Virus record (IMG/VR): IMGVR_UViG_3300003321_000095
Span: 7,233-71,232 of that record
From: a virus
Strand: one strand, 5' to 3'
DNA: 64,000 bases
The notes below the pieces were generated by a model. That model ran no database searches. It was not told the origin of the DNA and saw nothing but the letters and a program-made list of their open reading frames with translations. The position numbers were made by a program, and so were the translations under genes. Shown one piece after another: positions 22,371 to 62,044 of the stretch. Within the stretch, counting starts at the first letter, position 1. Each line of letters starts with the position of its first letter.

Positions 22371-25300
22371 TTAGAATGGTGTTCGTGAAGATTTTCTATA
22401 TTTAGTGAGCACTGTTGTCAAGGTAGCTGTGTCAGTAGTACCTGTTTTCCAATTCACCGTCGTAAGCAACCTTGTTCCCCTGAGACGGGCGCTTCCGCTA
22501 TCTCTCGGTATCTTAATCCTGAAGTTACCCTCTACGTCACTGATATCGAGGGAAGCCGTAGATGTCTGACCATTTAATTGAACCAGGTAATCGACAGATC
22601 CTAATCTACCGGTAGACACGAAAGCCTGATCGTCGAATGTTTTAGCAAGTTCGGGGTCAGGGTTAACAACAAATGTTACACGGGGTGTTTTGGTAACTCC
22701 GAATATCTGATTGTAATTACCCGCATACATCTTGTGTAGTACCACTGATGATCCGTTCTTTGATACTATGTAAAGTGCGTCATCATACACACCGTCCCCC
22801 AACTTGTTACCACTTCCACTTGTCTCCAGATCTCCTATCCACAAATTTAGTTGTTCCGAGAAAACATAAGCAATCCCCTGATTATTGTCTACAAGCCAAT
22901 ACTCTTTTCTCGAAGAGTCGTAGAGAGCAAGTAAGTTATTGGACAAAGAGCGTGCGTTCGTTCTCATACCATTCTCTTCAAGCCATTTTAATTGTTGACC
23001 GCTCAAAGCGTAGATAGAGTCGTTGAGGGGATCGGGAATGAAGATAGTATTACCTGTTTCAATGATTGATTGGAGTTGTTGTCCACCTCTTTTTGAGTCG
23101 ATCACAAGAGGTCGACTAATCACATCACCCGCGCCAATCGCCAAGATATTAGCGTCTGTCAATTCGACAGAGGTTTTACCTGTGGGTAGGTAAACTATCC
23201 TGTTATTTTGAATAGCGTACAGGTTGTCCCCCTCCAATGCTAGTTTAGTGATTCCACCACCATTCTCTTCAAGGTCGTAGATGTTACCTACCCTGAAGAT
23301 ATCAAATCCCTGTGTGTCGCTACCATAAATCTTGACATCGCTGTACATCACACGAGCTTTGTAGTTACTCTGTTCGAAGTTAAAGGCTGGTCGAGCGAAG
23401 TAGACTCGTTGGTCATCTTGCTTGGAGATGTTGATGTTATAGAGGTAAGTCAAAGGTGAACGGATTGCACCAGCAGACACAAAGAACTTATTGTGATTCA
23501 TGATGGGAAAACCTCCTTCTGGATAGTCTACACCCCCTACACTTATACCCATTATGTTGTCTTCAGCCATTACTCCTCCGTTATACTCTGATTCGAGCAC
23601 ACACTGGACGAATTGAGAAGCTCCTTCAAGAGCGATGGGTAAAGATATAGCCGCACCACCCTGATTCAAATAATAACGACCATCCCAATTTGTTAACAAA
23701 TCGGACGATGATTCGGCAGAAGGTGGTGCGTAATTTTTAGCTTGATTGATTACCGAATACTGTGTATCTGAAACTTTAAATACGTGAGATGACAGAAAAC
23801 AATCCCCACCAAAAACAGTGATATCTACGTCGACCCTGTTACCTGCTTTTACGTCTACCAACTCACCACTCGTGAAGGTATATGAGGCACCCGTTGAGAT
23901 GAATTCGTGTGGTGTGTCTACGCTACCATATCTGTCATCACCATAATTATTGACAGCGTTGACGATTCTAAACGCTTGTGTGGGAAGAGTATTGCTGTAG
24001 TCTGGATATTCGTTTATAAACGCGTTAGAAATACTGTCGGACATTGGATATTTAGGACCACTTGATCCAACAATATAACCACCATCTGCTCTGACATTGT
24101 ATACACCTGCTGCAAAAGTAACAGAGGCAGTTCTATTTAATTCTTCGAACGCTTCCGAGGTCTCGATAACAACACCCTTCTGTACCTGTTGTTTATATCC
24201 CCAGTTCACACCCTGTCCATTCAACGAATCGTAATCAAAGAAACTGTTACCGTTAAATGTGATAGGTTCGGACAAGGACTCGACGAACTGGTAGTTTTTG
24301 ATTGTAGTGGGGGTAGTTGTAATGCTCTTCGCTGACCAACCACTATCGAAGAAATAGTTTGCATCTTTCAGGGCATACCACACACCACTCACTCTTGTCT
24401 TGATGTAATTACCAGTTATTGGATGAGAGGTATCGTCAAAATCTACAATACTGGTTTTATTCAGTGTATAGTCAATTGTTTCTAGTTTCTCCGATCCAGT
24501 AAACTTATACGGAGTATCCCCGTACATTGTTGATTGGGGATAAATCATCGAGAAAGAGAACTTGTTATCGTCATCAAGAGCCAACGCTGCTTCTCCCTTC
24601 TTACCCAAAGAAGCCCCCGACCCAGTCTGTGTTAGTTTACGTTGGATGTTTCTTAGTTCTGGCCAGAATAGATTCTTAGGAGTGTATGTTCTCAGTGATT
24701 TCTGAGGTTGTGCGTCTGGGTAAGATTTATCACCCTCCACACCATCGTCCTGCGTTACTGCGAGAGAAGGATAAGAGTCAAGAGCACCGATACCCTCGAT
24801 GTACATCATTGGTATTACGGGAGTCTGAAACAATATCCTCTTGATCCTTTTAGCGCGAACGATCTCAAACCCAACAGCCCAGGTTGGGTGATTGTGAATA
24901 TTCGAAAGAGTAATACCTAATGCTCTCAGTTGATCGGTGCTGCTGAATATAGTGTAAGCGTTCGATGTGCTTCGAGCAGGGAAATGTACGTCGGGTAGTG
25001 AGCCGGTTATCTGGTTACCAGTCAAACTGTTCAGATCAAGCACCGAGACTGGACCCTTGTTACCATACTTATCTTTGTAGACTATGCCGAAACGATATGT
25101 TTCGTCTCGGAAGTAACCCTTGAACTTCGAAGAGTAGTACCCATCACTGTAGATATCGTTCTGGGTAGATACCACTGTTGAGACTTCTATGTTACCACCA
25201 TCAACAGCGGGTGTACCATTGTCAAATTGAAGATCGTGGTATTTTATGTTACCCCTGAATAACCTGTTCTGTTTGACCGCTAGTGTCTTCGATGAGCGTA

Positions 25301-26264
25301 TCGCGGCTGGATCGATAACAATGTCCTGGATAGCGACTAAACCAACTCTATCGTTCGATTTGTGAACGTATTGAGTGTTGGCGCTTGTCAATGAGGTGAT
25401 TGGTAGCAGTGCCGCTGTTTGTACGGGATTGTCGACTCCATACACATTCTCTATAACAGCTAACTGAAAGTAATCGAAATGATCTACTTCATCAGGAGAT
25501 GGAGAAACTATGACCGTTAATGCAAAAGGAGACGGAAGACCTGGTGCGGAATAGACGGGTTTGTCATCATTTACTTTACTGTAAACGTGAAATGGTTGTG
25601 ACAGTGTCGACCACCTGGTGAAGCGTTTGTGTGTTGGATCGACGCAGCGATAAGCATATTGATACGTACCCGTCAAAAGAGTACCTGTATCAATCGATAA
25701 CAAAGATACTTTACCGTTCGCCCCCCATCTCTGTAGCGATATGTCGAAATCAGTTAGGAAGAAGGCTGCTGAACCGGTTGGTATTTCACACCTTAACTGT
25801 CTTCCTTCGTTATAGTTATCTTCGAAATAAACATAGTCTATACCGTTCTCAGGATAGACTCTTGTATCAACGACTGTGTCTGAAGAGAAATAGCCGCTCG
25901 GTAACGACTGATCTTTGAAGAGATAATACAGAACGTTATTATCGAGATCATAACAGTTGATATAGAGTGCGTCGTGACCACTCTCCTTAGCAACAATGAA
26001 AACAGTCAAACAGTTGACAGCTTCTACCGAACCAATCTTATATTTTGTTGGTACAATTCTTACATTACAATCTATAATTGTTGATATGGTTCCACTCAAC
26101 GAACCAATCTGTGAAGTACCCTTGATATTAGTCAATGCGAGATAATCACTACCGCTCGACAACGTTACGTTGTGTGCCGAGATGTAGTGTGTTGGATCTT
26201 TGATGGAGTTGTTTGTGTCACCATCGAGTCCCTGATGAAAGCGGTTAGCTACTATTTCTTGCAT
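22371..26264 (-). CDS. tail stabilisation / muzzle protein (crAss-like)
   Basis: 1297 aa; F.QGLD.D N-terminus; KGYFRDETYRFGIVYKDKYG, FGGDCF and RLRG motifs of crAss-like/P22 gp10-like nozzle proteins; follows the ring genes. Confidence 0.8.
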   Translation of the reverse strand: MQEIVANRFHQGLDGDTNNSIKDPTHYISAHNVTLSSGSDYLALTNIKGTSQIGSLSGTISTIIDCNVRIVPTKYKIGSVEAVNCLTVFIVAKESGHDALYINCYDLDNNVLYYLFKDQSLPSGYFSSDTVVDTRVYPENGIDYVYFEDNYNEGRQLRCEIPTGSAAFFLTDFDISLQRWGANGKVSLLSIDTGTLLTGTYQYAYRCVDPTHKRFTRWSTLSQPFHVYSKVNDDKPVYSAPGLPSPFALTVIVSPSPDEVDHFDYFQLAVIENVYGVDNPVQTAALLPITSLTSANTQYVHKSNDRVGLVAIQDIVIDPAAIRSSKTLAVKQNRLFRGNIKYHDLQFDNGTPAVDGGNIEVSTVVSTQNDIYSDGYYSSKFKGYFRDETYRFGIVYKDKYGNKGPVSVLDLNSLTGNQITGSLPDVHFPARSTSNAYTIFSSTDQLRALGITLSNIHNHPTWAVGFEIVRAKRIKRILFQTPVIPMMYIEGIGALDSYPSLAVTQDDGVEGDKSYPDAQPQKSLRTYTPKNLFWPELRNIQRKLTQTGSGASLGKKGEAALALDDDNKFSFSMIYPQSTMYGDTPYKFTGSEKLETIDYTLNKTSIVDFDDTSHPITGNYIKTRVSGVWYALKDANYFFDSGWSAKSITTTPTTIKNYQFVESLSEPITFNGNSFFDYDSLNGQGVNWGYKQQVQKGVVIETSEAFEELNRTASVTFAAGVYNVRADGGYIVGSSGPKYPMSDSISNAFINEYPDYSNTLPTQAFRIVNAVNNYGDDRYGSVDTPHEFISTGASYTFTSGELVDVKAGNRVDVDITVFGGDCFLSSHVFKVSDTQYSVINQAKNYAPPSAESSSDLLTNWDGRYYLNQGGAAISLPIALEGASQFVQCVLESEYNGGVMAEDNIMGISVGGVDYPEGGFPIMNHNKFFVSAGAIRSPLTYLYNINISKQDDQRVYFARPAFNFEQSNYKARVMYSDVKIYGSDTQGFDIFRVGNIYDLEENGGGITKLALEGDNLYAIQNNRIVYLPTGKTSVELTDANILAIGAGDVISRPLVIDSKRGGQQLQSIIETGNTIFIPDPLNDSIYALSGQQLKWLEENGMRTNARSLSNNLLALYDSSRKEYWLVDNNQGIAYVFSEQLNLWIGDLETSGSGNKLGDGVYDDALYIVSKNGSSVVLHKMYAGNYNQIFGVTKTPRVTFVVNPDPELAKTFDDQAFVSTGRLGSVDYLVQLNGQTSTASLDISDVEGNFRIKIPRDSGSARLRGTRLLTTVNWKTGTTDTATLTTVLTKYRKSSRTPF

Positions 26265-36629: not shown

Positions 36630-36650
36630 TTTGTTAAAGTTTAAGTTTTT

Positions 36651-36680
36651 AAAAAGTAGGAGAATGTTAGTTCTCCTACT
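36651..36680 (-). terminator. intrinsic terminator after MCP
   Basis: AGTAGGAGAA/TTCTCCTACT 10-bp stem followed by a U-tract on the minus strand. Confidence 0.8.
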
Positions 36681-36707: not shown

Positions 36708-38048
36708 TTAACTGTTAGCGAATAGCAAACCTAAACGGTTAGGAGAGTATACAGCAGTCGTGAACTCAGTCAAGAGTTGACCTTCGATACCATCATAAGC
36801 GTTAGATACTTCAAGACCGGGCGACGCCATACCGGGGATCATCTTCTGGATGAACTTAGCACCATCACGGTATTTCACCTGGATGTTACGCTCGTTAGCA
36901 CCTGCTACTGTACCGAAGTCAAGAGCAAGCACAAGGTTGTTAAAGTCTTTCGCTGTTGACGAAGGAGTGACAGTAGGAACGATCGCTGTATCGCTAAACA
37001 GTTCGTAGTATGCGAAGTGAAACTTCTTACCGAGAATCTGATACGATTGGAAATCAAGACCGGCCAATTGACGGGGCTTATCTTGCATTGCGATTGTTTG
37101 ATACTTCGAACCCAAAGCGTGGTTGATATCTGCGAGGGCTTTGATACCGCACAACATGATGATATCGTTAGAACCAGCTTGAGGAACGATCTGAGTTGCA
37201 AACTGAGTAAGATCTGCTTCTTGCAAGCCGACTGCGCTCGAATAGTTAACAACCTGACCCGAACCTTCTGCGTATTCCATCAAACCACGAGTTTGATTCA
37301 CACCGGTGGCCGTCTTATAACGTTTACCGAAAATCAACTTCGCTTCAAAGTCACGCATGAATTCCTTCTGTTCGAAGTCTTCTTGCTTGTAGTACCATGA
37401 CTCATTGTCGACATAAGTCTTCTGAGACATCATACCGCGTTCAATCCGGAATTTCCTACGATTGATTTCGGTTACGTTGTAGTCTGTTCCGGGGAGATAC
37501 GAACGAACACCACCTGCATCAGATGAACCTCTTGCGAAGCCTGTACCGATATGACCGATTTTATGAGTCGAGTTGATGAGTGCTGTTGACCAATTGCTTC
37601 CATCAAACTGTGTTACAGTCATCGTTTGGAAACCACCCGAATTGCTTACAGAAGCAACACGACCGTTAGCACCTGTGTTAGCTACACGGAATTCATCACC
37701 CACGATGAAATAACCTAGATCATTTACACCATCTGCTGTGATATCAAGAGTAAGAGTTGCTGTTGCAGTTGTACCGTTGCTGATCGCGGTGATCGTCGCG
37801 CTCTTACGAGTACGATCCATGATTTGCCAAGAATAAGTATCCGAGAAGATTGTACCACTTACACCAGCGATTTTCTCAGTCATATCCGTGAGATAGTACT
37901 GAGGGAATTTAATGATAAGTGCTTCGAGAATCTCGGGTTTTTCGAGACCCGCATTGAAAATATGTTGGGACAAGACCTGCTGATCGCGAGCTTGTGTACC
38001 TGTACCTGAGACGGAACTCGGGACGTTTGTGCCGGGGATTAAACCCAT
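36708..38048 (-). CDS. major capsid protein (HK97 fold, crAss-like)
   Basis: 446 aa; follows portal and scaffold; E..F.R..E..LIFG.....TRGLM pattern; followed by a terminator. Confidence 0.85.
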   Translation of the reverse strand: MGLIPGTNVPSSVSGTGTQARDQQVLSQHIFNAGLEKPEILEALIIKFPQYYLTDMTEKIAGVSGTIFSDTYSWQIMDRTRKSATITAISNGTTATATLTLDITADGVNDLGYFIVGDEFRVANTGANGRVASVSNSGGFQTMTVTQFDGSNWSTALINSTHKIGHIGTGFARGSSDAGGVRSYLPGTDYNVTEINRRKFRIERGMMSQKTYVDNESWYYKQEDFEQKEFMRDFEAKLIFGKRYKTATGVNQTRGLMEYAEGSGQVVNYSSAVGLQEADLTQFATQIVPQAGSNDIIMLCGIKALADINHALGSKYQTIAMQDKPRQLAGLDFQSYQILGKKFHFAYYELFSDTAIVPTVTPSSTAKDFNNLVLALDFGTVAGANERNIQVKYRDGAKFIQKMIPGMASPGLEVSNAYDGIEGQLLTEFTTAVYSPNRLGLLFANS

Positions 38049-38174: not shown

Positions 38175-39329
38175 TTAGAGACTACCAGGTGTTCTTAGAG
38201 AGCCTACATGTGCTGCAATTCTTTCAGCAGCAGATTTAGGCTTGTCGTTCGTTTGGGGTTGAGGAGGTATAGCAGGTGTGTTCAACTGAACATTTTGTGC
38301 TTTTGAAAGGAGTTCTTTCTGACCTTTGACCTTACCTTGATCGAATTGATGTTTCGAGATGTTTTCTCCCCATTCAGCCAGTGCGAGTGTTCGAGCGAGT
38401 TTGTTAGCGTCTACCCCACTGAGGTCGACATTCTTACCAAAATGCTTTTCGATCAACTTACCACTTCTGATACCTTCATAGATATAATCGCCGTGTTTTG
38501 ATTCGAGCGTTATGCCTACCTTTTCGGGAGAAAGAGTTTTAGATAGATTTTTAGAGGCTTCTGCGAGATCCCTGTTGAACTTTTGTTTTCGTTCTTCGTT
38601 TGCTCTTGCGATCTCTTGCTTACGCATCTGTGCTCTCTGTGTCAAGTTATCCTTGATTTGATTGCCTAGGATTCGCTTTGTTGCTTCGGGAACTTCTGCG
38701 AGGGCTGCGTCGGCTGCTTCCTTGTTGTAGTTTGGAGTTCCTAGTCCGTATTGCCTGTCGATTTCTTGTTCGAACAGTTGGATGGGATCTACCTTGCTGT
38801 AGTCAACCAAGGTTGCTGCAAGGGCACCTTTCCAGTCACCTTTGTCTTTTGCTATCTTAAAAATCTCTTTGAATTCATCATCCAAATCTGAAACGAACGA
38901 AGCTTGTGATGCTTCTAGTTCCTTGATTTTCGCTTCTTGTTTTGTAAAGGTTTGTACCAGATCGTCTTTTGTCTTGATACCTTCGAGTTTCAAAGCACTG
39001 CTAAGATTCTCGATTGTCAAAGGTTGGTCGACGGGTGTCGAGGTACTAGAGAATAAATCTTTGTCCCACGGTTCTGTGACTGGCTCTGCATTAGCGGCAG
39101 GCTCAGTAGAGAGTTCTGTTTTAGGGTCTGTGACCGGAGCGGGAGGAGTTTGAGCCACTGGCTCTACTACTGGCTTTGGTTCGACCTGGGTGACAGCGGG
39201 TGGAACGGTAGATTCAGTATTTGTAGGAACCGCTGCGGGTGGTATTGCGCCTTGTGCAGCAGCTTCATTTTTCATTTTGTTTGAGAAAGCGGCGAGTCCG
39301 GCTTTCATGTTCTGATCTAAATCTGACAT
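38175..39329 (-). CDS. capsid scaffolding-like protein
   Basis: P/E/T-rich disordered N-terminus and coiled coils; between portal and MCP. Confidence 0.7.
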   Translation of the reverse strand: MSDLDQNMKAGLAAFSNKMKNEAAAQGAIPPAAVPTNTESTVPPAVTQVEPKPVVEPVAQTPPAPVTDPKTELSTEPAANAEPVTEPWDKDLFSSTSTPVDQPLTIENLSSALKLEGIKTKDDLVQTFTKQEAKIKELEASQASFVSDLDDEFKEIFKIAKDKGDWKGALAATLVDYSKVDPIQLFEQEIDRQYGLGTPNYNKEAADAALAEVPEATKRILGNQIKDNLTQRAQMRKQEIARANEERKQKFNRDLAEASKNLSKTLSPEKVGITLESKHGDYIYEGIRSGKLIEKHFGKNVDLSGVDANKLARTLALAEWGENISKHQFDQGKVKGQKELLSKAQNVQLNTPAIPPQPQTNDKPKSAAERIAAHVGSLRTPGSL

Positions 39330-39367: not shown

Positions 39368-39385
39368 AGCAATAATCGTGCCAAA
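39368..39385 (-). promoter_or_regulatory. sigma54-type (-24/-12) promoter of the scaffold-MCP-tail operon
   Basis: TTTGGCACGATTATTGCT matches consensus YTGGCACGnnnnTTGCW; intergenic; identical to 46121-46138. Confidence 0.8.
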
Positions 39386-39388
39386 CTA

Positions 39389-41554
39389 CTAAGGTGCCGC
39401 TAAAGTTGCTAGAGTTTTTATCTTAGAATCGTTCAGTTTGACTTTGCCGGTCAGGGCTGTCTTATCGAGATTACCCTTGTTCTTCAATTGTTGCAGACCC
39501 ATCTGACCCTGGATATTCATTTGCTGAGTAGCCATCTGATCTTGAGAGAGTTTCTGTTGTAATTGTGCGTCTCTCTCCTGCTCTGCTTGCTGCATCTGAG
39601 ATTCAAGCATCTTACGGACTGTGACCTTACGTTGGAGTTTGCGAAGTGCCTGTTTGATATCTGGATCGAGCAGGATGTCAAGAGCGTCCTGAACTTCAAG
39701 TTGTTGAGACTGTACAGCTAGCATGATGAAGTTCTCGAATTTGGCTCTATCTTGTAAGAGAGGAGGCAAACTTTCAACGATCACACCTACCGATTCGAGA
39801 TCGATATCGATGTTCTCTTTCAGAAAATCGACTCCCGCCGATCCGATAATAGGTTCAAAAACCTCTCTATCGGCCATAGCGATGCGCATCAGTTTAGCCT
39901 GTTGTGTCATCACCCTTGACCAGAATCTCTCAAACCCTATGAAATACGGCTTCGTAGTCATGGCTGATTGGAAGATAGCGGCGTCGGTCACCCCCACTGC
40001 TTGGGAAGGAGCCTGTACAACTCCCTGTCTTTCGGCAGAACTACCCAAAATAATATTCTCCTGTTGGTCCAGAAAGTTCATTATCTCAACATATTCCCTG
40101 ATACCTTGAGTTATCGATAAATCGATCTCTTTGAGTACGTTCATACCCCCCTGCATCATCTGGTACTCTTTGGTATTCACCGCAACAATACCCGCAGTCT
40201 TCAGATACGATGCTACCTTGTCCAGGTTCCAGCCTTCTGGCATCAGAGCCATATCGAATACGAACCCCTTAGCACCCGCCCTGTTCATGGCAAGCTGTAG
40301 GTTGTACATCGCCATGTCTTTGAGGAGATCGAGCGCCACCACCTGTTCCACTTTAGATATTGATTGACCTAACATATAGTTTGGTACCCAACAGGTATAA
40401 GGTGGCAACGTTTTCTCTAAAGTGTCAATGTCACGGGGTTGGTTAGGAAGTTCGCCCCATTCCCTAATAATCTCTCCTCCGATCATTGTGATCCCCCTCC
40501 AACATTCCATTTTAGAAGTGATGATATTGGCTTTGCGAGGAGTTTTGTTCTCGTCGGTGAGTTCTTGCAGGTGTTCTGTGCCGTACTTCTCTTTGACCTC
40601 GTTCTTGTACTTGCGAGTCTTGAAGTCTTTCCAAACAGCCCTCAGTACCATGACTCTAGGCACATTGTCAATATTCCTAAACCAACCCAACGAACCGTTG
40701 TCAATACAATCGAAGAAATGATTCTGGCTGGCTCCAATGTACAAACCCGCGTTCATGTTGGTATAGACGTTGTAGTTGTTCTGAGCCTTCTCTAATTCTT
40801 CTTGAGTTAGGTTGTAACGTTCAGCGGCTTCGGCTAAACCCATATAATAGGCTTCTAAGAAATAAGTACTGTCGGACAGTTCGTCGTCGGTAGCGTTGGG
40901 GTCCCACACAAAGCACAGAGGTTCCACACGGAAAGGTCGCGGCACTCCTCTTACAATCTCGTTACGAATGAAGCAAGCATTCTGTATCCATACATCTTTG
41001 AATGTAGCATTCCTAAGCCTGTCGACATTGTTACGTTTCGCCAGGTCCTTTAATCCCATCTCATACACTAACTCTAATTTGTCTTTGTATTTAAGATCGG
41101 CCCATTCGTCTAAAGACAAATCTGATTGGGGAATGTTGGGGTCCTGAACAGGAAGACCTGTGCGTTCTTGTGCAAACTGCGCTGCATCTTGAAGTCTTCG
41201 TTGTACACGCAGTGTTTCTTTTGCTTCGTGTTTACGTGATACTGCTTCTTTAGATAACGCTCTTACTCTCAATTCCCATCCTCGCGATTCGAGTTCACCG
41301 ATTAGATTCTCAATTTTCGCCTTCAACGCAGAAATACTAAAATACATCGCCGGTAAATCGCTACCATCTTGTGCTTTCTGAATCCACGGCGTCATGTCAC
41401 CAGTACTTCCTTGATTGAAGTACTTAATGGCCTCTTGCTTCACGCGATACCGAATTGCCCAGGTATTTGTCAAACTATATTTAGCGAGAGCTTTACCCCA
41501 TGCGAGATGGTATTCGCGATCTTTCTTTTGAGTAGCTAGTGACGGGAGGTTCAT
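39389..41554 (-). CDS. portal protein
   Basis: 721 aa directly after TerL; KIENLIGE, G...ERQG and Q-rich C-terminal barrel typical of crAss-like/P22-like portals. Confidence 0.85.
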   Translation of the reverse strand: MNLPSLATQKKDREYHLAWGKALAKYSLTNTWAIRYRVKQEAIKYFNQGSTGDMTPWIQKAQDGSDLPAMYFSISALKAKIENLIGELESRGWELRVRALSKEAVSRKHEAKETLRVQRRLQDAAQFAQERTGLPVQDPNIPQSDLSLDEWADLKYKDKLELVYEMGLKDLAKRNNVDRLRNATFKDVWIQNACFIRNEIVRGVPRPFRVEPLCFVWDPNATDDELSDSTYFLEAYYMGLAEAAERYNLTQEELEKAQNNYNVYTNMNAGLYIGASQNHFFDCIDNGSLGWFRNIDNVPRVMVLRAVWKDFKTRKYKNEVKEKYGTEHLQELTDENKTPRKANIITSKMECWRGITMIGGEIIREWGELPNQPRDIDTLEKTLPPYTCWVPNYMLGQSISKVEQVVALDLLKDMAMYNLQLAMNRAGAKGFVFDMALMPEGWNLDKVASYLKTAGIVAVNTKEYQMMQGGMNVLKEIDLSITQGIREYVEIMNFLDQQENIILGSSAERQGVVQAPSQAVGVTDAAIFQSAMTTKPYFIGFERFWSRVMTQQAKLMRIAMADREVFEPIIGSAGVDFLKENIDIDLESVGVIVESLPPLLQDRAKFENFIMLAVQSQQLEVQDALDILLDPDIKQALRKLQRKVTVRKMLESQMQQAEQERDAQLQQKLSQDQMATQQMNIQGQMGLQQLKNKGNLDKTALTGKVKLNDSKIKTLATLAAP

Positions 41555-43452
41555 CTGTTGAAGAGGGGATTATTTGATTTTATTTGTACGCGCATTGGTG
41601 CTCCGTTATTAACTAGTTCTAGTTTACCGCCGATGCGTTGGTAGGAGGCAGAGGGATTCATGGATAGATGTGCCGTTGTTGATTCAGCGACTCTTCTATC
41701 TGATTGTAAAAGCATGAGTGCCCATCCGAAGGCACAAGCCAAATCATCATCTGCATGGTCAAGACCGAATTTAGCACACTCTTCGATGAAACGAATTGAT
41801 GGTATTAAATCGGCATGATGCTCCCAATAACTTTCGAGTAAACCTATCATTTGTAGTTTACGTTGAGGAGTCATCTTAACACCAACAGTCATTTCGAATC
41901 CACCTTGTAATCTATCGGGGGACTTCGGAGCAAGCGATAAAAGATTAGGATAATGTTGTTCAAAATAATCTTTTAAACGTGCTCCACCCTTATTGGTCTC
42001 AACAAGCAATGGTGTGTTATTATACCACTTCAACAACATACCGACTTGATCGTAATATGTTGTCAACTTCGGTGGACGATCTGTAAATTCAGCAACTAAT
42101 TTAGGTCCATCTAAACCAAAAGGTCTTGCTAATATTGCAGTACTGAGATTAGAGTTATCTCTGCTTTTGCGTGTATCGTCATCTTCAGCCGGATCACAAG
42201 CCGCTACGTAAGCGTGTTTGATATCGGGGACTGGACGTTCGTAAATAATAATCTTACCGTCTGGATCTGGTACGAAGTCTGGCGGATTACCTGGACCTTT
42301 GGGTCTCATCCAACCAGTCACCATCTTAGGAGGATTCTCCATAAGATTCGTCGCTATCTTTGCGCGAACCATTGGATTACCGACACCTGTGCCATTTGCT
42401 TCTAAGAAGGCATCTTCTTGTGTAAGAGGGTAACGTTGAAAAAATTTATGACGTATAATTGGAGTCAGTGTCTCCATTCGACGACGTTCATATATAATCC
42501 ATCTCACACTTTCTTCAATCATATCGTTACCAAGATCGTCGACGATTAAACATTGATATCCAAAGATCGGAAGTCTTTCAAAATTATATTGTTCTGAATT
42601 TTTCCAGAATTCACGAAGTGATCTACCTGCTTTGTTTGTATCACCGACAGTACCGAAAAGTATAGGTGTTCCCACTCTAACTCCGTCCTGTATAATCGTG
42701 TCTTCACCATTAGCCCACATGGCAGTTCCCTCTTCCACTTCTCCTATTTCATCTAGGCATAAACGCTTGAACTGGGAACCGGCGAAGGCAGTTGGTGTTG
42801 GTGCAAAAGATCTTATTGATGAATTGTTACCCACCCATCTTTCTGTTTTCTCTATCCATTTACCGAATACCATTGCGTCGCGACGATCCGTGTTGATGTA
42901 TGTGCGCAGGAACTTAGGAAGATTTCTATGAACATATTTGTGTTTATCGAATAAGAGGTAACTGTCAGTTAACCCCTTCGAACTCATCCCTATATCGAAA
43001 TCTTTATTGAACGTGCACTCGTAGATATTGTCTGTTGATATATACCAACTCATTCCAACCTGGCGACGTTTGAATGTCACAGAACCTCTACCTCTTGTCT
43101 TAACTACCTTATCAAGTTTGTTCGCGAAGTCCATCATCGATGCTCTGAAATCAGGACGAATCTTACCGCGTTCCTTGTTCTTGATATAACAGGCATTGAG
43201 GTGGAAGAAGTAGCGACCACTCATGCCATCGCTTGTACCGTATCTACATTTATTTATGAAATCAAGTTCCCAATCTAACTTAGCACGTTTGTCATCTCCG
43301 AAATCCGGTATCTCAACATGCTCTATTTTTTTTGTAACACGAAACGGATTTGTCGCCATGATTCGCGCAGTGTGGTATTGTACCTCTGCTTCGAGATCTT
43401 CCTTGTATTCGTTCCGCGAGATAATTATGGGGTTATCTTCCTTCTTAGACAT
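41551..43452 (-). CDS. terL: terminase large subunit
   Basis: Walker A-like KRRQVGMSW, Walker B LCLDEIG, coupling motif FGT; RNase H-like nuclease ACDP, VETN and DDDL. Confidence 0.92.
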   Translation of the reverse strand: MSKKEDNPIIISRNEYKEDLEAEVQYHTARIMATNPFRVTKKIEHVEIPDFGDDKRAKLDWELDFINKCRYGTSDGMSGRYFFHLNACYIKNKERGKIRPDFRASMMDFANKLDKVVKTRGRGSVTFKRRQVGMSWYISTDNIYECTFNKDFDIGMSSKGLTDSYLLFDKHKYVHRNLPKFLRTYINTDRRDAMVFGKWIEKTERWVGNNSSIRSFAPTPTAFAGSQFKRLCLDEIGEVEEGTAMWANGEDTIIQDGVRVGTPILFGTVGDTNKAGRSLREFWKNSEQYNFERLPIFGYQCLIVDDLGNDMIEESVRWIIYERRRMETLTPIIRHKFFQRYPLTQEDAFLEANGTGVGNPMVRAKIATNLMENPPKMVTGWMRPKGPGNPPDFVPDPDGKIIIYERPVPDIKHAYVAACDPAEDDDTRKSRDNSNLSTAILARPFGLDGPKLVAEFTDRPPKLTTYYDQVGMLLKWYNNTPLLVETNKGGARLKDYFEQHYPNLLSLAPKSPDRLQGGFEMTVGVKMTPQRKLQMIGLLESYWEHHADLIPSIRFIEECAKFGLDHADDDLACAFGWALMLLQSDRRVAESTTAHLSMNPSASYQRIGGKLELVNNGAPMRVQIKSNNPLFNR

Positions 43453-44341
43453 CTGTATTTAAATAAACCACTGTTTTACCGTTGTACGCTTTGACGTATT
43501 TCAGCATTTCGTTGACGAAGGGAATGTAGTCGAAAAGAACCCGTTGAAATATCATGGATTCCCCCCTTACTATGAGATGAGGAACAAATGGATGTTTGGT
43601 TATCTCCTCTGTAGCATTTGGAAAGTTCTTCCAATTAATCCATGTGTCTTTGGATGCCACCTTTATTTCATCTACTGTCGAGCATAGGATGATGTTGGTG
43701 GGAGAAATTTCGCGAGGGTTGTGTAACCTATGCGCCATGAATCTCTCTACCTTTCCGTGGGGGATTTCTTGGATTTTGATACTCGACCAGAATGCTGCAA
43801 ATGGTGCACTAATCTGATCGCGCCAACTACCCCCCTCAATCTCCTTCCACCAGATCTTATCGAAACTTTTCGTGTTCCCCCGTCTAACGATTACACCGCA
43901 GCGGTACAATCCATTATTCTCTGGGTACTTTAACCCCCTATATTTCGCTACCTGTTTAGAAATAGTTTCTTCAGAATCAAGTTTTTTGTCCAGTACGATC
44001 TTGGCTTCTTCATACACACATTGTCTCTGGGGATGTTTTGTCATGTGAACCCCCTCTCCCATATCTTTCACGAACTCGTTGAAATCACCATAGAGTTGAT
44101 AACTGGCATCGACGTAGACTGTGACTTCGTATTTGTTGTGATTGGGTGGATTTATTTTATAGAGACGAGATAGTAGTTTCGGCGAAAGAGTTGACTGTGG
44201 TTTTACTATTTGCCATACACCTGGATTCTGAATGTCCTGATCGGTATAACAGACGTAATCGAAATCTTCAGATATTAGACGGGGTTGTTTGAGATCATCG
44301 TAAGGGCCGAAAAGGCAGGTGTAAATAAGTTTGGTGTTCAA
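43445..44341 (-). CDS. DUF616 (TOD1/MUCI70-like) glycosyltransferase
   Basis: IYTCLFG.YDDL, YVCYTD, R.YKI.P, YVDAS, HPQRQCVYEEA and WW.EI..GSWRDQ.S motifs; TTG start. Confidence 0.8.
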   Translation of the reverse strand: MNTKLIYTCLFGPYDDLKQPRLISEDFDYVCYTDQDIQNPGVWQIVKPQSTLSPKLLSRLYKINPPNHNKYEVTVYVDASYQLYGDFNEFVKDMGEGVHMTKHPQRQCVYEEAKIVLDKKLDSEETISKQVAKYRGLKYPENNGLYRCGVIVRRGNTKSFDKIWWKEIEGGSWRDQISAPFAAFWSSIKIQEIPHGKVERFMAHRLHNPREISPTNIILCSTVDEIKVASKDTWINWKNFPNATEEITKHPFVPHLIVRGESMIFQRVLFDYIPFVNEMLKYVKAYNGKTVVYLNTDV

Positions 44342-45079
44342 TCAGATACGTTTAAAAGTGTATCCTTTGCACGATAACCTCTTACCATTACATACCGCAC
44401 CTATTTTGCACCCTATTTTATAATTATCGAACATCTGCCGTGCAGCTTCTTCGCAACTAGAAAACACAACACCCGTTTCGATACACATAACTGGTTTAGA
44501 ATGCGCTTTAGATATTTTCTCTCGAACTTCGGGTGGACGAGGAACACCTTTATTCCTCCCTATTAACTTAGCAACATGTTCAGGAGATAATTTTCTACCG
44601 TAGAATGGATGGGCTTCACCTCTCAGAATAGTTTTGTTGTTCATGATTTTAATTCGTTGTTCTTCTGTCCATTTCCTGCCTTTTCTTGTCACACTCATCT
44701 TGGCGCGGGACTCGGGAGACATTTTACGACCGATAGCAGATTGTCTCATCTTTTCTTTCGTTTCTTCTGGAAGCGGTCCGTTATTACCACCTTCTTTGAT
44801 ATTCATCAACTCATAACCCAGCATTCGATAGTGAGCCATATAGAAACATTCGGCGTAGTTTAGATGGTCTTGTGTAACAGTATTTTTATTGAACTCATGA
44901 ATCACTTCGAACTTGTGCGCGTCCCAGCCGTGTTTTGCAATAGAGTTATGGAGACGATGTTGTTTCTTCGCTTGATCGTGTTTGTATTGTCTTTTCCGAT
45001 GTTCTATGTTTCTACTCTGACCGATATAAAGATAACCGGAAGGGCTTGTGATTTTGTAAATACCTATTGTTTTAGACAT
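44342..45079 (-). CDS. free-standing GIY-YIG homing endonuclease with NUMOD3 repeats
   Basis: GIYKIT...YIGQS.NI..R; EETKEKM, SPESRAKMS and HPFYGRKLS repeats; NUMOD1-like C-terminus. Confidence 0.9.
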   Translation of the reverse strand: MSKTIGIYKITSPSGYLYIGQSRNIEHRKRQYKHDQAKKQHRLHNSIAKHGWDAHKFEVIHEFNKNTVTQDHLNYAECFYMAHYRMLGYELMNIKEGGNNGPLPEETKEKMRQSAIGRKMSPESRAKMSVTRKGRKWTEEQRIKIMNNKTILRGEAHPFYGRKLSPEHVAKLIGRNKGVPRPPEVREKISKAHSKPVMCIETGVVFSSCEEAARQMFDNYKIGCKIGAVCNGKRLSCKGYTFKRI

Positions 45080-45104
45080 TTCTTAAATTCGATTAGTAGC
45101 ACAT

Positions 45105-45139
45105 AAAGCCCCTTGATCGAAATCTTGGGGCTTTTGTTT
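45105..45139. terminator. hairpin terminator upstream of the homing endonuclease
   Basis: AAAGCCCC...GGGGCTTT stem with T-rich flanks. Confidence 0.55.
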
Positions 45140-45160
45140 TAATTATTTTTAGTGAGTTAC

Positions 45161-45442
45161 TTAAGATCCACTTAAATCCGTGGCGCTTAATCCTGTAGCT
45201 ACATCAGCACTTTCTTGTGTAATGTAGAGATTGAAGCCATCCGAGGTTACAAGAAGCGAATCATCTGTTGATGTCGAGCCTGTGCGAGCAGGGATTGAAT
45301 AGATAATCGCTGAAGTACCCCACATCATAAGGGTTACTTTTTTAGTAGTACCTGCGGTTGTTGATCCACCGTTGAAAGAAATATTACCCTGAGGAGTTAC
45401 AATCTTCCAGGCATCCACCGTTATTACGCTTTTCTGTGCCAA
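45161..45442 (-). CDS. small hypothetical (possibly virion) protein
   Basis: 93-aa S/T-rich ORF; TTG start with AT-rich leader. Confidence 0.55.
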   Translation of the reverse strand: MAQKSVITVDAWKIVTPQGNISFNGGSTTAGTTKKVTLMMWGTSAIIYSIPARTGSTSTDDSLLVTSDGFNLYITQESADVATGLSATDLSGS

Positions 45443-45485
45443 TTTGGGAAAAAGTTTAGTTTTGGGAAATTATTAGAGAGAAAAA

Positions 45486-45713
45486 TTATGCTTCTTTAAA
45501 TTCAACGTAGTACTCTTTGCCTGGCTCAAACAATTCGTTAGAGAATGCTCCGAGTTCTATCTTACCTGTTGGAGTTACGGCTAAGAAATCTTTGTTTTCT
45601 TGACTGCCTGTTGTTACAGGATTGAGAGACGCTGTATAGAGAAATCGTCCGCTTCCGTCCCAGTGTTTGGTTTTGGTGACAGACGTACATTGAAATTTTG
45701 CGATTGTTGACAT
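45486..45713 (-). CDS. small conserved phage protein (AKF.C...EN..F...TP.G.IEL...FEPGKEYYV.F)
   Basis: Recognisable recurrent phage family signature; function unknown. Confidence 0.75.
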   Translation of the reverse strand: MSTIAKFQCTSVTKTKHWDGSGRFLYTASLNPVTTGSQENKDFLAVTPTGKIELGAFSNELFEPGKEYYVEFKEA

Positions 45714-45756
45714 AAATGTTAGAATAGCTTAAAAAAGTTTTTCGCGGCCTTCGATA

Positions 45757-45786
45757 AAGACCCCCGTTCAAATCACGAGGGTCTAT
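45757..45786 (-). terminator. hairpin terminator downstream of tRNA-Met
   Basis: Minus strand AGACCCTCGT-GATTTGA-ACGGGGGTCT-TTAT. Confidence 0.5.
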
Positions 45787-45850
45787 TTCTCAATAAACGC
45801 ATCTGAGTGCGTCGAATCAACAATACTATTGTCGATGAGGAAAATGTATG

Positions 45851-45921
45851 TTGCGGGAGTCGGTCTTGATCCGACGTGAGACAGGTTATGAGCCTGGTGA
45901 CTAGCCCTAGTCTATCCCGCG
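45851..45921 (-). tRNA. tRNA-Met(CAT), initiator-like but divergent
   Basis: CGCGGGA/TCCCGCA acceptor with C1:A72 mismatch; GACT/AGTC D-stem; CAGG-CTCATAA-CCTG; GTCGG-ATCAAGA-CCGAC T-arm; no CCA. Confidence 0.8.
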
Positions 45922-45973
45922 ATATAAGACTCACCCTAGGACGCTGTTCTTATGGGTAGCGTGGTAAGTACTA

Positions 45974-46105
45974 TTATTTCTTATGTTTGAAGTACTCTAC
46001 CTGGCGGAGGCGCTTTTCGGCTTGTTTCTTAGAGAGGTTCTTCTTACTGAGAGGTTTGCCTTTTTCGCTAGTGACTTCGTAGCCTTTGCTTGTTTTCTTA
46101 ATCAT
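45974..46105 (-). CDS. small basic protein (43 aa; not in ORF track), first gene after the sigma54 promoter
   Basis: MIKKTSKGYEVTSEKGKPLSKKNLSKKQAEKRLRQVEYFKHKK*; ...A.KRLRQ.EYFKH motif recurs in phages. Confidence 0.7.
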   Translation of the reverse strand: MIKKTSKGYEVTSEKGKPLSKKNLSKKQAEKRLRQVEYFKHKK

Positions 46106-46120
46106 AAAAGACTATTCTAC

Positions 46121-46138
46121 AGCAATAATCGTGCCAAA
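46121..46138 (-). promoter_or_regulatory. sigma54-type promoter upstream of the tRNA/terminase-portal block
   Basis: TTTGGCACGATTATTGCT; intergenic; identical to 39368-39385. Confidence 0.8.
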
Positions 46139-58070: not shown

Positions 58071-58841
58071 TCACAAGACTCTCATAGGCAGCGTAAACAC
58101 CGTAAAGGGTTGTTTAAGGGTTGCTAACGGGGGGATAGGAGCCGCGCTGTTCTTCTTGCTCAATATGGTTCTCCGTTTAATCCGTCTCAAAGACACACGT
58201 GAGCAGGGCGTTTTTGCCCCCACTTCATCCCTCCTATTCACCCCCGTAGTGGTACGTCCCCCACTATAGACGGTGAAGTACTTCTTCCTGAGTTTGTGAC
58301 CGCTACCCAGGGAAGCGGGGCTATACCCCAATATCTCCGCAGCATGAGAGCAAGACAAGAGAGGTTTCTCGGTTTCCCGAATGAGCTTAGCTGGTAAGTT
58401 CTTCTTGACAGTTAGCCTTCTTGTAATCTGCTTCTTTTTACGTTCTATTAAGTGATACTGGATCGCTTCCAGCGCCTCTTTGAAGAAGAGCTTAGGATCT
58501 GTAGCCTCTATTAAAAGTCTCTTATAAACGAATCTATTGCGTTTTCTGGCCTCGTTCTTTCTCTTCGTCACACACTTCCCCACCTTCAGGATCGACCAGA
58601 CCTCGCGATAACTCTTAAGTTCCCAATAATCCCCCTTATCCTCGATCCATCCAGCACCCTTGAGAATCTTCGTCCAGTACGCTGCCCTATTCTTGTGTGG
58701 TTTTAATAGAGATTTTTTAACATGACCATACGGCCCCATTGACTTAAGCCAAATAAAAGCAACCAATGCCTTCTGTTTCCTGATGGGAAGAGAAAGATTA
58801 GTGGGAATTAAATGACTTGGGGGGTTGGGTTTCTTAGTCAA
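58071..58841 (-). CDS. very basic DNA-binding protein (HTH; replication-initiator- or regulator-like)
   Basis: 256 aa, K/R-rich; LSCSHAAEILGYSPAS HTH-like segment; TTG start. Confidence 0.55.
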   Translation of the reverse strand: MTKKPNPPSHLIPTNLSLPIRKQKALVAFIWLKSMGPYGHVKKSLLKPHKNRAAYWTKILKGAGWIEDKGDYWELKSYREVWSILKVGKCVTKRKNEARKRNRFVYKRLLIEATDPKLFFKEALEAIQYHLIERKKKQITRRLTVKKNLPAKLIRETEKPLLSCSHAAEILGYSPASLGSGHKLRKKYFTVYSGGRTTTGVNRRDEVGAKTPCSRVSLRRIKRRTILSKKNSAAPIPPLATLKQPFTVFTLPMRVL

Positions 58842-59271
58842 GGGGACGTTCTAAAGGGGTCTTTTTGCGGTTGGGATAGAAAGTTATTGCGGAAATCGAG
58901 GGGGTTGGTAGAGAGTGATCGAATGTGTTGACTGGTTTTCTATCTGTGAATTTCTGTTTCTCGCGATGTCTCTTGATGAAGTTCCCCGTCCCTGCTTCCC
59001 TGTGTTCTGCCTTGTGACATACCTTACAAAGGAGTTCTACATCTTGTGCGGTCTCTTTGTAGAGATTTTTGTAGTTTTTGTGGTGTACCTGAAGTTGTTT
59101 AGACGACCCGCATCTTTCACATTTGTGACCTCTTAACGTTAAGATAGACTCTCTGAACTTCTTCCAGTTGGGATCGCTGTTAATATAGTCTAAATACTTA
59201 TGATACCAATCGGGTAGATTTTTGGCTTTATTGCGCCGATGTCGATTCCGACGACGATTACGTTTTGACAT
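58834..59271 (-). CDS. HNH endonuclease
   Basis: Y.DY..S..W...R, CERCG, LQVHH.NY and L.LLC..CH..EH motifs. Confidence 0.9.
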   Translation of the reverse strand: MSKRNRRRNRHRRNKAKNLPDWYHKYLDYINSDPNWKKFRESILTLRGHKCERCGSSKQLQVHHKNYKNLYKETAQDVELLCKVCHKAEHREAGTGNFIKRHREKQKFTDRKPVNTFDHSLPTPSISAITFYPNRKKTPLERPLD

Positions 59272-59391: not shown

Positions 59392-59409
59392 AGCAAAAAC
59401 CATGCCAAA
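59392..59409 (-). promoter_or_regulatory. sigma54-type promoter (TTTGGCATGGTTTTTGCT)
   Basis: -24 TGGCA and -12 TTGC at exact spacing; intergenic, immediately after the upstream stop as for 39368. Confidence 0.7.
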
Positions 59410-62037: not shown

Positions 62038-62044
62038 GTTAGTT

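What the first reader, a model, noticed from the sequence alone, without database searches (positions are those of the whole stretch)
39368..46138. Phage morphogenesis operons appear to be driven by sigma54 (RpoN) promoters
Seen in sequence: the identical 18-mer TTTGGCACGATTATTGCT sits on the sense strand in two short intergenic gaps, before scaffold-MCP-tail (39368-39385) and before the small ORF/tRNA/terminase/portal block (46121-46138). A third intergenic copy, TTTGGCATGGTTTTTGCT, is at 59392-59409, and a perfect copy lies inside a cargo gene (22038-22052). All are on the minus (sense) strand. Established: this is the sigma54 consensus (TGGCAC at -24, TTGC at -12, fixed spacing), and sigma54 holoenzyme normally needs an AAA+ enhancer-binding protein (GAFTGA loop) to open the promoter. 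No such activator is visible in this window. Inference: late transcription uses host RpoN, via a hijacked host activator (tying lysis timing to host physiology) or via a novel non-AAA+ phage activator. I am not aware of this being a described late-gene strategy.
Basis: partly seen in the sequence, partly recalled or inferred. Interest (0 to 1): 0.88.

Follow-up and report, generated by a model that had tools for sequence, protein, structure and literature searches.

The report
Sigma-54-type promoters before phage late genes
An uncultured phage distantly related to crAss-like phages, and many of its relatives, carry textbook sigma-54 promoter sequences in front of their head, packaging, lysis and homing-endonuclease genes but encode no activator, so they probably run these genes on a host transcription system that phages are almost never reported to use.

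Summary
TTTGGCACGATTATTGCT occurs twice exactly, at 39368-39385 and 46121-46138. A close variant lies at 59392-59409. All three are on the sense strand in short intergenic gaps. Two more intergenic sense copies lie in the 7.2 kb of the record outside the window, before an HNH gene and the endolysin gene.

The phage is a distant relative of crAss-like phages, probably with a Bacteroidota host. The evidence is a muzzle protein, a portal resembling those of crAss-like and Bacteroidota phages, and no Shine-Dalgarno signal.

TGGCAC-N5-TTG(C/T/A) is kept in relatives with 35-67% portal identity. It is nearly always intergenic and sense, and often sits before the orthologous head gene. No sigma-54 or activator domain was found in this record or in five relatives.

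In Bacteroidota the same extended motif precedes groES, grpE and htpG. Their groES promoters also vary at -12.

My best reading (0.6) is host sigma-54 promoters fired by a host activator, perhaps the chaperone-regulon activator. No transcription data exist.

This scan found the same pattern before on other DNA, in a 73.5-kb relative (e1-5892633). The only published precedent I found is one sigma-54-like promoter in Pseudomonas phage YuA.

The parts
39368..39385 (-). Sigma-54-type promoter E (TTTGGCACGATTATTGCT). It starts 3 nt after the portal stop. The predicted start of transcription is near 39357, which gives a leader of about 28 nt before the 384-aa head-module gene.
   Evidence: The same position after the portal stop is occupied by the motif in L002, L005, L006 (two copies), L009, L011, L015, L017, L018 and L019.
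46121..46138 (-). Sigma-54-type promoter D, an identical 18-mer. The predicted start is near 46110, which gives a leader of only about 5 nt before the 43-aa ORF.
   Evidence: It is conserved in L002 at 5413.
59392..59409 (-). Sigma-54-type promoter C (TTTGGCATGGTTTTTGCT). The predicted start is near 59381. It is followed by a structured leader of about 110 nt and then an HNH endonuclease gene.
   Evidence: Leader fold: -32.4 kcal/mol, z -2.7.
22037..22052 (-). Intragenic perfect core TGGCACGATTTTTGC inside the 164-aa gene. It may be an internal promoter or a coding coincidence.
   Evidence: It lacks the flanking T bases, and a similar coding string occurs at 29543-29557.
38175..39329 (-). 384-aa head-module protein. 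I call it a scaffold from its position only; no family matched. It is the first gene behind promoter E.
   Evidence: No PHROG or Pfam match. Orthologues at 21-47% identity stand behind the motif in L005, L006, L008, L009, L012 and L017.
36708..38048 (-). Major capsid protein gene.
   Evidence: PF17236 SU10_MCP, E 1.5e-12. phrog_13704, E 6e-18.
36650..36680 (-). Hairpin of 10 bp plus a U-run directly after the capsid gene. It is probably an intrinsic terminator that closes the promoter E unit.
   Evidence: -13.6 kcal/mol, z -4.4, and 0 of 200 shuffles fold as well.
45974..46105 (-). 43-aa basic ORF, the first reading frame behind promoter D.
   Evidence: Read from the sequence.
45850..45921 (-). 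tRNA-Met (CAT), inside the promoter D unit.
41551..43452 (-). Terminase large subunit.
   Evidence: phrog_6681, E 8e-34.
39389..41554 (-). Portal protein.
   Evidence: phrog_6547, E 5e-63. PF16510 is listed for its homologues.
58834..59271 (-). HNH endonuclease, the first gene behind promoter C.
   Evidence: phrog_119, E 2e-11. PF01844.
22371..26264 (-). Crassvirus-type muzzle protein. It places the phage near crAss-like phages.
   Evidence: PF25731, E 1.6e-42, and PF25729, E 1.2e-9.
7880..8371 (+). Phage ECF-type sigma factor. It probably reads a second promoter class, TGTAAC-N17-CGTATAA, and not the sigma-54-type sites.
   Evidence: PF07638, 23.1 bits against a cut-off of 21.1. The ECF-like motif is seen in the gaps 61990-62044 and 57835-58070.

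Best explanation
These sites are real sigma-54 (RpoN) class promoters, read by the host RNA polymerase carrying host sigma-54. The record has at least five of them, three in the window. All point along the long leftward gene arm.

They head these units:
- an HNH gene at the start of the arm;
- the endolysin gene;
- a second HNH gene;
- the unit of small ORF, tRNA-Met, terminase and portal;
- the head unit (384-aa protein plus major capsid protein), which ends at a terminator hairpin.

The phage encodes neither sigma-54 nor an AAA+ enhancer-binding protein, so a host activator must open the promoters (inferred). The most likely activator is the one that runs the sigma-54-dependent chaperone and protease regulon of Bacteroidota. 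In two Prevotellaceae genomes this is the only such protein, and it has no sensory domain, like PspF. The promoters abut the preceding stop codon, as the host grpE and Bax1-I promoters do, so any enhancer must lie in coding DNA or be dispensable.

A phage ECF sigma factor with its own promoter motif probably serves the replication genes. That would give a cascade in which sigma-54 is the late tier.

Shown here: the motif, its placement, its conservation, the absence of phage activator domains, and the same motif before host chaperone genes. Inferred: binding by sigma-54, the identity of the activator, the timing, and the host.
For: 1. All 12 scored consensus positions match in two copies and 11 of 12 in the third, with exact one-turn spacing.

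2. In this record plus 24 related loci (372,656 bases) there are 26 exact TGGCAC-N5-TTGY sites. Of these, 24 are on the portal-sense strand and 22 are intergenic by my ORF calls. My arithmetic expects about 1.4 by chance.

3. A relaxed pattern gave 63 sense and 18 antisense sites. The reversed-sequence control gave 30 on both strands together.

4. Whole records of 5 relatives gave 21 sites against 2 for the control pattern. The sites are strongly one-stranded in three of the four records that have them (7:0, 0:5 and 6:2; the fourth has a single site).

5. The motif follows the portal stop in 9 relatives. It precedes orthologues of the 384-aa head protein even where the gene order differs, and it precedes an HNH gene in L012.

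6. PF00158 is absent in 0 of 1 plus 0 of 5 records. PF04552 and PF04963 are absent.

7. Sigma-70-like sites are not enriched: 17 against 20.7 +/- 5.0 expected.

8. Host side. The exact string TTTGGCACGRTTWTTGCT occurs in 35 Bacteroidota-titled stretches out of the 120 returned. Of the 10 downstream proteins I scanned, 6 are HtpG, GroES, GrpE (three times) and trigger factor.

9. Of 70 Bacteroidota groES upstream regions, 20 carry the motif. My arithmetic expects about 2 by chance. The -12 base is C in 11, A in 8 and T in 1.

10. A sigma-54 DNA-binding domain is present in 81 of 81 Bacteroidota genomes sampled.

11. Papers. F. psychrophilum motif SM4 is sigma-54-type and precedes groES-groEL, lon, dnaK, grpE-dnaJ, htpG and clpB (PMC9723704, passages). 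Chaperone genes are enriched for sigma-54 promoters in Bacteroidota (PMC12316311, passages).

12. Host phylum. All 67 phage records matching the portal are crAss-like or Bacteroidota phages, judged from organism names and from the hosts written in 34 of the records. The muzzle domain points the same way. A Shine-Dalgarno core is present in 8 of 78 genes against 7.0 +/- 1.8 in shuffles.
Against: - There is no transcript, start-site or rpoN-dependence data. The one sequencing run that holds the DNA is a DNA run and is probably its own source.
- Many relatives carry TTGT or TTGA instead of the canonical TTGC at -12. TTGT is the commonest phage form, yet only one T was seen at that position among the 20 host groES promoters, and that promoter also departs at the preceding base.
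- Phage copies often carry TA two bases after the TTGY (about 17 of 29 by my reading). The nine host promoters mostly do not (1 of 9). This hints at an extra element that could belong to another reader.
- I saw no shared upstream enhancer-like sequence in the 160 nt before the six sites (by eye only).
- The host is unknown. A scan of 185,579 species genomes found no relative of the portal.
- A cultured distant relative, Flavobacterium phage FpV4, shows no such motif before its head genes. It has 7 loose sites against 2 for the control, and none lies in 4148-11572.
- CheckV rates the record 52% complete, so an activator gene could lie in a missing part. Against this, ten relatives' contigs are 71-79 kb long.
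Confidence: 0.6

Rival explanations
1. The motif is read by a phage-made factor: an unrecognised sigma-like or DNA-binding protein, or a partner of the phage ECF sigma. Its likeness to the sigma-54 consensus is then mimicry or coincidence. Late genes would be switched on by the phage itself, as in T4 or SPO1.
For: - The phage does encode its own sigma factor (PF07638) and many proteins of unknown family.
- The -12 base drifts by lineage between C, T and A.
- Phage copies share an extra TA two bases downstream that host promoters lack.
- Some relatives read TGTGnTATAAT-like strings at that place (L006, L009).
Against: - The conserved blocks are one helical turn apart, which does not fit sigma-70-family factors. 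These need about 17 bp between their two elements (established knowledge).
- The ECF sigma already has a plausible separate motif, TGTAAC-N17-CGTATAA.
- The exact extended string is the one used before host groES, grpE and htpG.
- Host groES promoters also vary at -12.
- A 12-of-12 match by coincidence in a whole phage family is improbable.
Confidence: 0.17
2. Host sigma-54 holoenzyme does dock at the sites, but mainly as a stable closed complex. It would then act as a brake, an insulator between operons or a sink for sigma-54 and RNA polymerase, and not as the main source of late transcripts. Late genes would be read through from upstream promoters.
For: - Sigma-54 closed complexes are stable and silent without an activator (established knowledge).
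- Promoters D and E sit directly after stop codons with no terminator before them, so read-through from upstream is possible.
- No enhancer or phage activator was found.
- Earlier notes of this scan proposed such a brake in other phages (e1-6136453, e1-5974295). I did not test those notes.
Against: - The sites are in the sense direction 24-90 nt before gene starts in nearly all cases. A roadblock need not have that geometry.
- One copy (L190:6276-6291) stands at the head of the whole leftward arm in the divergent gap, where there is nothing upstream to block.
- The promoter E unit ends with its own terminator after the capsid gene, as a self-contained high-output unit would.
Confidence: 0.12
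3. The matches are chance or a by-product of composition and have no function.
For: The intragenic copy at 22037-22052 may be such a case.
Against: - 0 of 100 shuffles reach the observed count.
- Relatives show strand and intergenic bias and keep the sites at syntenic positions.
Confidence: 0.01

Closest known systems
Sigma-54 (motif SM4) promoters of the chaperone and protease genes of Flavobacterium psychrophilum and other Bacteroidota (PMC9723704; PMC12316311)
   Same: - The same -24/-12 sequence with the same flanks. The exact phage-type 18-mer stands before htpG, groES and grpE in Bacteroidales genomes.
- Placement tight against the preceding stop codon.
- Variation at -12 also occurs in host groES promoters.
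   Different: - Here the promoters are on a virus and drive virion, packaging, lysis and endonuclease genes.
- The phage copies often add TA at about -9/-8.
- TTGT is common in the phages but nearly unseen in my host sample.
- I could not see the SM4 logo or the start-site tables, because figures and supplements are closed.
Sigma-54-like promoter P015 of Pseudomonas phage YuA (Ceyssens et al. 2008, seen only as cited; Putzeys et al. 2024, PMC10914365, passage read)
   Same: A lytic phage with a promoter assigned to host sigma-54, backed there by a promoter trap and ONT-cappable-seq.
   Different: - YuA has one such promoter among many sigma-70-like and phage-specific ones, in a Pseudomonas siphovirus.
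- Here it is a repeated class that heads the late units and is conserved through a phage family of another host phylum.
- The 2008 paper is not held, so I do not know which YuA genes it drives.
Middle and late promoters of crAss-like phage phi14:2 (Drobysheva et al., bioRxiv 10.1101/2020.03.07.982082, passages read)
   Same: A related virion module. The middle and late genes on the leftward arm are transcribed by the host RNA polymerase.
   Different: - phi14:2 uses a tripartite motif with -35/-10-like blocks that E. coli sigma-70 holoenzyme reads, and early genes are read by a virion RNA polymerase.
- This phage shows no DFDxD motif in its six large virion-module proteins, which include the four cargo proteins. 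Its motif is of the -24/-12 type.
T4 late transcription (gp55, gp33 and the gp45 clamp; review PMC2988020, seen in a search listing only)
   Same: It works like it in one respect: late promoters that are silent until an activator acts on the bound polymerase.
   Different: T4 brings its own sigma (gp55), co-activator and clamp. Here no phage component is recognisable and the host system would be used whole.
rpoN as a host factor for Salmonella phages FelixO1 and Aji_GE (PMC8744999, passages read)
   Same: Phage growth depends on host rpoN.
   Different: There the effect is indirect, through glutamine supply and RpoS activity, and not through promoters on the phage.

Membership tests
Sigma-54 (RpoN) dependent promoter | -24 TGGCAC and -12 TTGC elements with the GG and GC doublets 10 bp apart | tested here: met
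   Two copies score 12 of 12 and one scores 11 of 12. The out-of-window copies score 11 of 12. In relatives the -12 C is often T or A.
Sigma-54 (RpoN) dependent promoter | Sense orientation a short distance upstream of a gene, in non-coding DNA | tested here: met
   5 of 5 intergenic copies in the record are sense, with motif ends 15-137 nt before a start codon. In the family, 24 of 26 sites are sense and 22 of 26 are intergenic.
Sigma-54 (RpoN) dependent promoter | Transcription starts about 12 nt downstream of the -12 C | not testable with these tools
   No RNA run holds the sequence.
Sigma-54 (RpoN) dependent promoter | Activity needs rpoN in the host | not testable with these tools
   The host is unknown. 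Sigma54_DBD is present in 81 of 81 sampled Bacteroidota genomes, so the factor would be available.
Sigma-54 (RpoN) dependent promoter | An AAA+ enhancer-binding protein and, usually, an upstream enhancer | tested here: inconclusive
   No PF00158 in this record or in 5 relatives. Host genomes G001-G004 carry 1 to 6 strong matches each. I saw no shared upstream sequence by eye and ran no motif search.
crAss-like phages (Crassvirales and kin) | Crass-type muzzle protein, portal and terminase module | tested here: met
   PF25731 at E 1.6e-42. The portal is 19-25% identical to crAss-like portals.
crAss-like phages (Crassvirales and kin) | Giant virion RNA polymerase with a DFDxD motif | tested here: not met
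   None of the six large virion-module proteins, which include the four cargo proteins, has the motif. There is only a weak match to the N-terminal part of an N4-type profile (E 1.9e-5). I therefore file it as a distant relative, not a member.
Sigma-70-family (primary or ECF) promoter | Two elements about 16-18 bp apart (-35/-10), or the Bacteroidota -33 TTTG / -7 TAnnTTTG pair | tested here: not met
   The elements are 5 bp apart. Sigma-70-like sites are not enriched and none falls in the two gaps on the sense strand. TAnnTTTG is not enriched in gaps, with 5 of 68 sites intergenic against an intergenic share of 5%.

The most novel reading that the evidence does not exclude
This phage family has wired its late genes into the host's sigma-54 protein-folding-stress regulon. 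The sensor-less, PspF-like activator that switches on groES, grpE and htpG in Bacteroidota would also fire the phage promoters. The flood of unfolded virion proteins, or the infection stress itself, would then turn on late transcription in a self-reinforcing loop, with no phage regulator.

The lineage-specific -12 base (C, T or A) would track the sigma-54 preference of each host lineage, or would loosen the need for the activator. That non-consensus -12 bases relax activator dependence is my recollection of work by Gralla and co-workers. I did not check it here.
Probability: 0.3. Interest if true: 0.8.

Novelty: new variant of a known kind. Interest (0 to 1): 0.68.

Why it matters
Textbook phage gene timing rests on sigma-70-type host promoters, phage sigma factors or phage RNA polymerases. 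A whole family of environmental phages that hands its late genes to the host's enhancer-dependent sigma-54 system would be a different strategy. Virion production would be tied to a host stress or physiology signal, and it would predict resistance through rpoN or activator mutations.

It would also give a set of short, portable, tightly regulated promoters for Bacteroidota, a phylum with few genetic tools. It offers a sequence handle too: the -12 variant might help match uncultured phages to host lineages.

In the paper searches the only precedent I found in print was one sigma-54-like promoter in phage YuA.

Tried and rejected
- Close DNA relatives among 50,697 phage records: none.
- Portal relatives in 185,579 species genomes, sought for host clues: none.
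- RNA evidence: no RNA holder is listed. The only run holding the stretch is a DNA run of a root metagenome that may be the source itself. I did not use read laying, since contigs cannot show starts.
- Virion RNA polymerase as the reader of the motif: no DFDxD motif, and no match in the PDB by sequence for the 1572-aa and 1643-aa proteins.
Nothing speaks for or against them.
- Protein Atlas search with the 726-aa glycosyltransferase for host taxa: uninformative, mostly viral clusters.
- The Bacteroidota primary-sigma reading (-33 TTTG, -7 TAnnTTTG): rejected on spacing and lack of enrichment.
- A further site near 45421-45437: rejected, because its GG and GC are one base too close (checked).
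- Cultured relative FpV4: no motif before its head genes, so it is not a ready test system.
- Literature: searches found no paper on sigma-54 promoters for phage late genes other than the YuA passage.
- Not seen: Ceyssens 2008 is not held. Supplements are closed, so the SM4 logo and start-site tables of PMC9723704 and Supplementary file 1 of the phi14:2 preprint were not seen and could bear on the comparison.
- Limits of my counts. ORF calls in scripts are crude. L007/L008 and L020/L021 overlap nearly identical DNA, and L002 is 89% identical to this phage, so the family counts are not independent events. In one search I scanned 10 of the 30 downstream ORFs found for 35 Bacteroidota stretches, chosen by eye. 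The other 20 were not scanned.

Full report
**Observation.** The 18-mer TTTGGCACGATTATTGCT is present twice without mismatch on the minus strand, at 39368-39385 and 46121-46138. A three-mismatch variant is at 59392-59409. That makes 3 matches against 0.03 expected, and 0 of 100 shuffles reached 3. The core TGGCAC-N5-TTGC with up to one mismatch occurs 7 times against 2.2 +/- 1.4 expected. This set includes a perfect intragenic core at 22038-22052.

Reading the gaps confirms the reported placement. The first copy begins three bases after the portal stop. The second ends 15 bases before a 43-aa ORF, which is followed by tRNA-Met. The third opens a 139-bp gap before an HNH gene.

The window is bases 7233-71232 of a 71,232-bp virus record. 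Scanning the whole record found two more intergenic sense copies in the part outside the window. One is at L190:6276-6291, at the head of the leftward arm in the divergent gap and before an HNH endonuclease gene. The other is at L190:1135-1150, before an endolysin gene. The intragenic copy is doubtful: it and a similar string at 29543 both encode a G-T-x-x-A-G-N peptide.

**What the phage is.**
- The leftward arm carries a primase/helicase, exonuclease and phosphoesterase genes, glycosyltransferases, terL, the portal, a 384-aa head protein, an SU10-type major capsid protein, a Crassvirus-type muzzle protein (PF25731, E 1.6e-42) and large cargo proteins.
- The rightward arm carries a DNA polymerase and an ECF-type sigma factor.
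- None of the six large virion-module proteins has the DFDxD motif of crAss virion RNA polymerases.
- The portal finds 67 phage records, all below 60% identity (19-25% in the rows listed). All are crAss-like gut phages or phages of Bacteroides, Flavobacterium psychrophilum or Azobacteroides.
- Genes lack Shine-Dalgarno cores: 8 of 78 have one, against 7.0 +/- 1.8 in shuffles.
- I infer a Bacteroidota host. The host itself is unknown, since a scan of the species genomes found no portal relative.
- Ten of the contigs that hold portal homologues are 71-79 kb long. The record is therefore probably near full length, despite the 52% CheckV estimate.

**Conservation.**
- A portal alignment (A1) brought in 30 loci from IMG/VR.
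- Directly after the portal stop the motif is present in L002, L005, L006 (two tandem copies), L009, L011, L015, L017, L018 and L019.
- In this record plus loci L002-L025 there are 26 exact TGGCAC-N5-TTGY sites. Of these, 24 are on the portal-sense strand and 22 are intergenic by my ORF calls. My arithmetic expects about 1.4 by chance.
- A relaxed pattern gave 63 sense and 18 antisense sites. Reversed-sequence controls gave 30 on both strands together.
- Whole records of five relatives hold 21 sites against 2 for the control pattern, strongly one-stranded in three of the four records that have them.
- The gene behind the motif is the orthologue of the 384-aa head protein (21-47% identity) in L005, L006, L008, L009, L012 and L017. 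This holds even where it does not follow the portal.
- In L012 one copy precedes an HNH gene of the same PHROG as here.
- Some loci are near duplicates (L007/L008, L020/L021) and L002 is a close relative, so these are not independent counts.
- The -12 base differs by lineage. It is C here and in L002, L012 and L019. It is T in L005, L006, L009, L011, L015, L017, L018, L021 and L022. It is A in L003, L004, L007 and L008.

**Who reads it.**
- No Sigma54_activat, Sigma54_DBD or Sigma54_CBD domain is found in six-frame searches of the record. No Sigma54_activat domain is found in five relatives.
- Sigma-70-like sites are not enriched near the gaps.
- The Bacteroidota -7 motif is not enriched in gaps.
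- The two conserved blocks are one helical turn apart. That is the hallmark of sigma-54 and does not fit sigma-70-family factors (established knowledge).
- A separate ECF-like motif, TGTAAC-N17-CGTATAA, stands in two other gaps (it was first noted in e1-6174202). It probably belongs to the phage sigma factor.

**Host side.**
- Leads from earlier notes of this scan took me to two papers, which I read in passages.
- In F. psychrophilum the sigma-54-type motif SM4 precedes groES-groEL, lon, dnaK, grpE-dnaJ, htpG and clpB (PMC9723704).
- A comparative study finds sigma-54 promoters before chaperone genes enriched in Bacteroidota and Planctomycetota (PMC12316311).
- I tested this directly.
- Of 10 downstream proteins that I picked and scanned, out of 30 called, 6 are HtpG, GroES, GrpE (three times) and trigger factor. 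Two are Bax1-I family proteins.
- Of 70 groES upstream regions from an even sample of the phylum, 20 carry the motif at a typical 57-100 nt from the gene. The -12 base is C in 11, A in 8 and T in 1. The non-canonical -12 base of the phages therefore has a host counterpart for A. For T, only one host promoter shows it, and that one also departs at the preceding base.
- The sigma-54 DNA-binding domain is present in 81 of 81 genomes.
- In two Prevotellaceae genomes the only strong enhancer-binding protein starts directly with the AAA+ domain and ends in HTH_8, with no sensory domain. That is the layout of PspF.
- Host grpE and Bax1-I promoters abut the preceding stop codon just as the phage promoters do.

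**Architecture of the units.**
- Promoter E is followed by the 384-aa gene, the capsid gene and a strong hairpin with a U-run (-13.6 kcal/mol, z -4.4). This is a compact high-output unit.
- Promoter D gives a leader of about 5 nt.
- Promoter C is followed by a structured leader that ends in a G+C stem and a U-run just before the HNH start.

**Weaknesses.**
- There are no expression data. The only holder of the sequence is a DNA run that may be its source.
- The TTGT variant is almost unseen in my host sample.
- Phage copies tend to carry TA two bases after the -12 element, and host copies do not.
- I saw no shared enhancer by eye.
- The cultured F. psychrophilum phage FpV4 lacks the motif before its head genes.

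**Comparison with what is known.**
- phi14:2, the studied crAss-like phage, uses sigma-70-like middle promoters and a virion polymerase.
- YuA has one sigma-54-like promoter. The original paper is not held.
- The rpoN effect on Salmonella phages is indirect.
- Six paper searches gave nothing on sigma-54 promoters for phage late genes.
- This scan has noted the same pattern in a 73.5-kb relative (e1-5892633) and sigma-54 sites in other uncultured phages. I did not check whether that relative is the record behind L012.

**Verdict.** I rate it a new variant of a known kind: a known promoter class put to an almost undescribed use as the late-gene promoter of a phage family.

Noticed in passing
L190:6734-6799 (+), i.e. 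bases 6734-6799 of the record, about 430 bases before the window starts: A type II hammerhead ribozyme (RF02276, 51.9 bits against a gathering score of 37, E 1e-8). It lies between the first rightward genes, just after the divergent promoter gap.
   Followed up: no
window 59272-59391 (-): The leader of about 110 nt behind promoter C folds into a long stem (-32.4 kcal/mol, z -2.7). A G+C-rich base of the stem is followed by UUUUCUUUUC right before the HNH start codon. It looks like a terminator or attenuator.
   Followed up: partly
window 61990-62044 and 57835-58070 (-); ORF 7880-8371 (+): A second promoter-like class, TGTAAC-N17-CGTATAA, is in two gaps of the replication region. The phage also has an ECF-type sigma factor gene (PF07638, 23.1 bits). 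Together with the sigma-54-type sites this suggests a tiered cascade.
   Followed up: partly
L190:4693-5235: A 543-bp gene-free stretch with many G and C runs lies inside the leftward arm, between a methyltransferase-like gene and the HNH gene. It had no Rfam match at gathering score.
   Followed up: no
L154:826-2067 (-) and L155:1468-3183 (+), Prevotellaceae genomes G002 and G003: The only strong sigma-54 activator in each genome has no N-terminal sensory domain (AAA+ domain from residue 12-22, then HTH_8). In G003 the open frame runs on into an LptE domain. It is a candidate regulator of the Bacteroidales chaperone regulon.
   Followed up: partly
L032:3-3149 (-), Muribaculaceae genome: The same 18-mer stands 70 nt before a long ORF whose N-terminus reads like the RNA polymerase beta subunit. 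I judged this by eye and did not scan it.
   Followed up: no
window 44342-45079 (-), 58834-59271 (-) and L190:5622-6236 (-): There are three free-standing homing-type endonuclease genes (GIY-YIG with NUMOD3, HNH, HNH). The two HNH genes are each directly behind a sigma-54-type site, and the same is seen in relative L012.
   Followed up: partly
window 14592-22369 (-): The cargo genes behind the muzzle gene show no DFDxD motif. The 1572-aa protein has only a weak match to the N-terminal part of an N4-type virion polymerase profile (E 1.9e-5). This crAss relative may lack a virion RNA polymerase.
   Followed up: partly
L231 (Flavobacterium phage FpV4, NC_041872.1): This cultured phage with a distantly related portal has no sigma-54-type sites before its terminase, portal or head genes. 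The trait is not general among Flavobacterium phages of this module type.
   Followed up: yes
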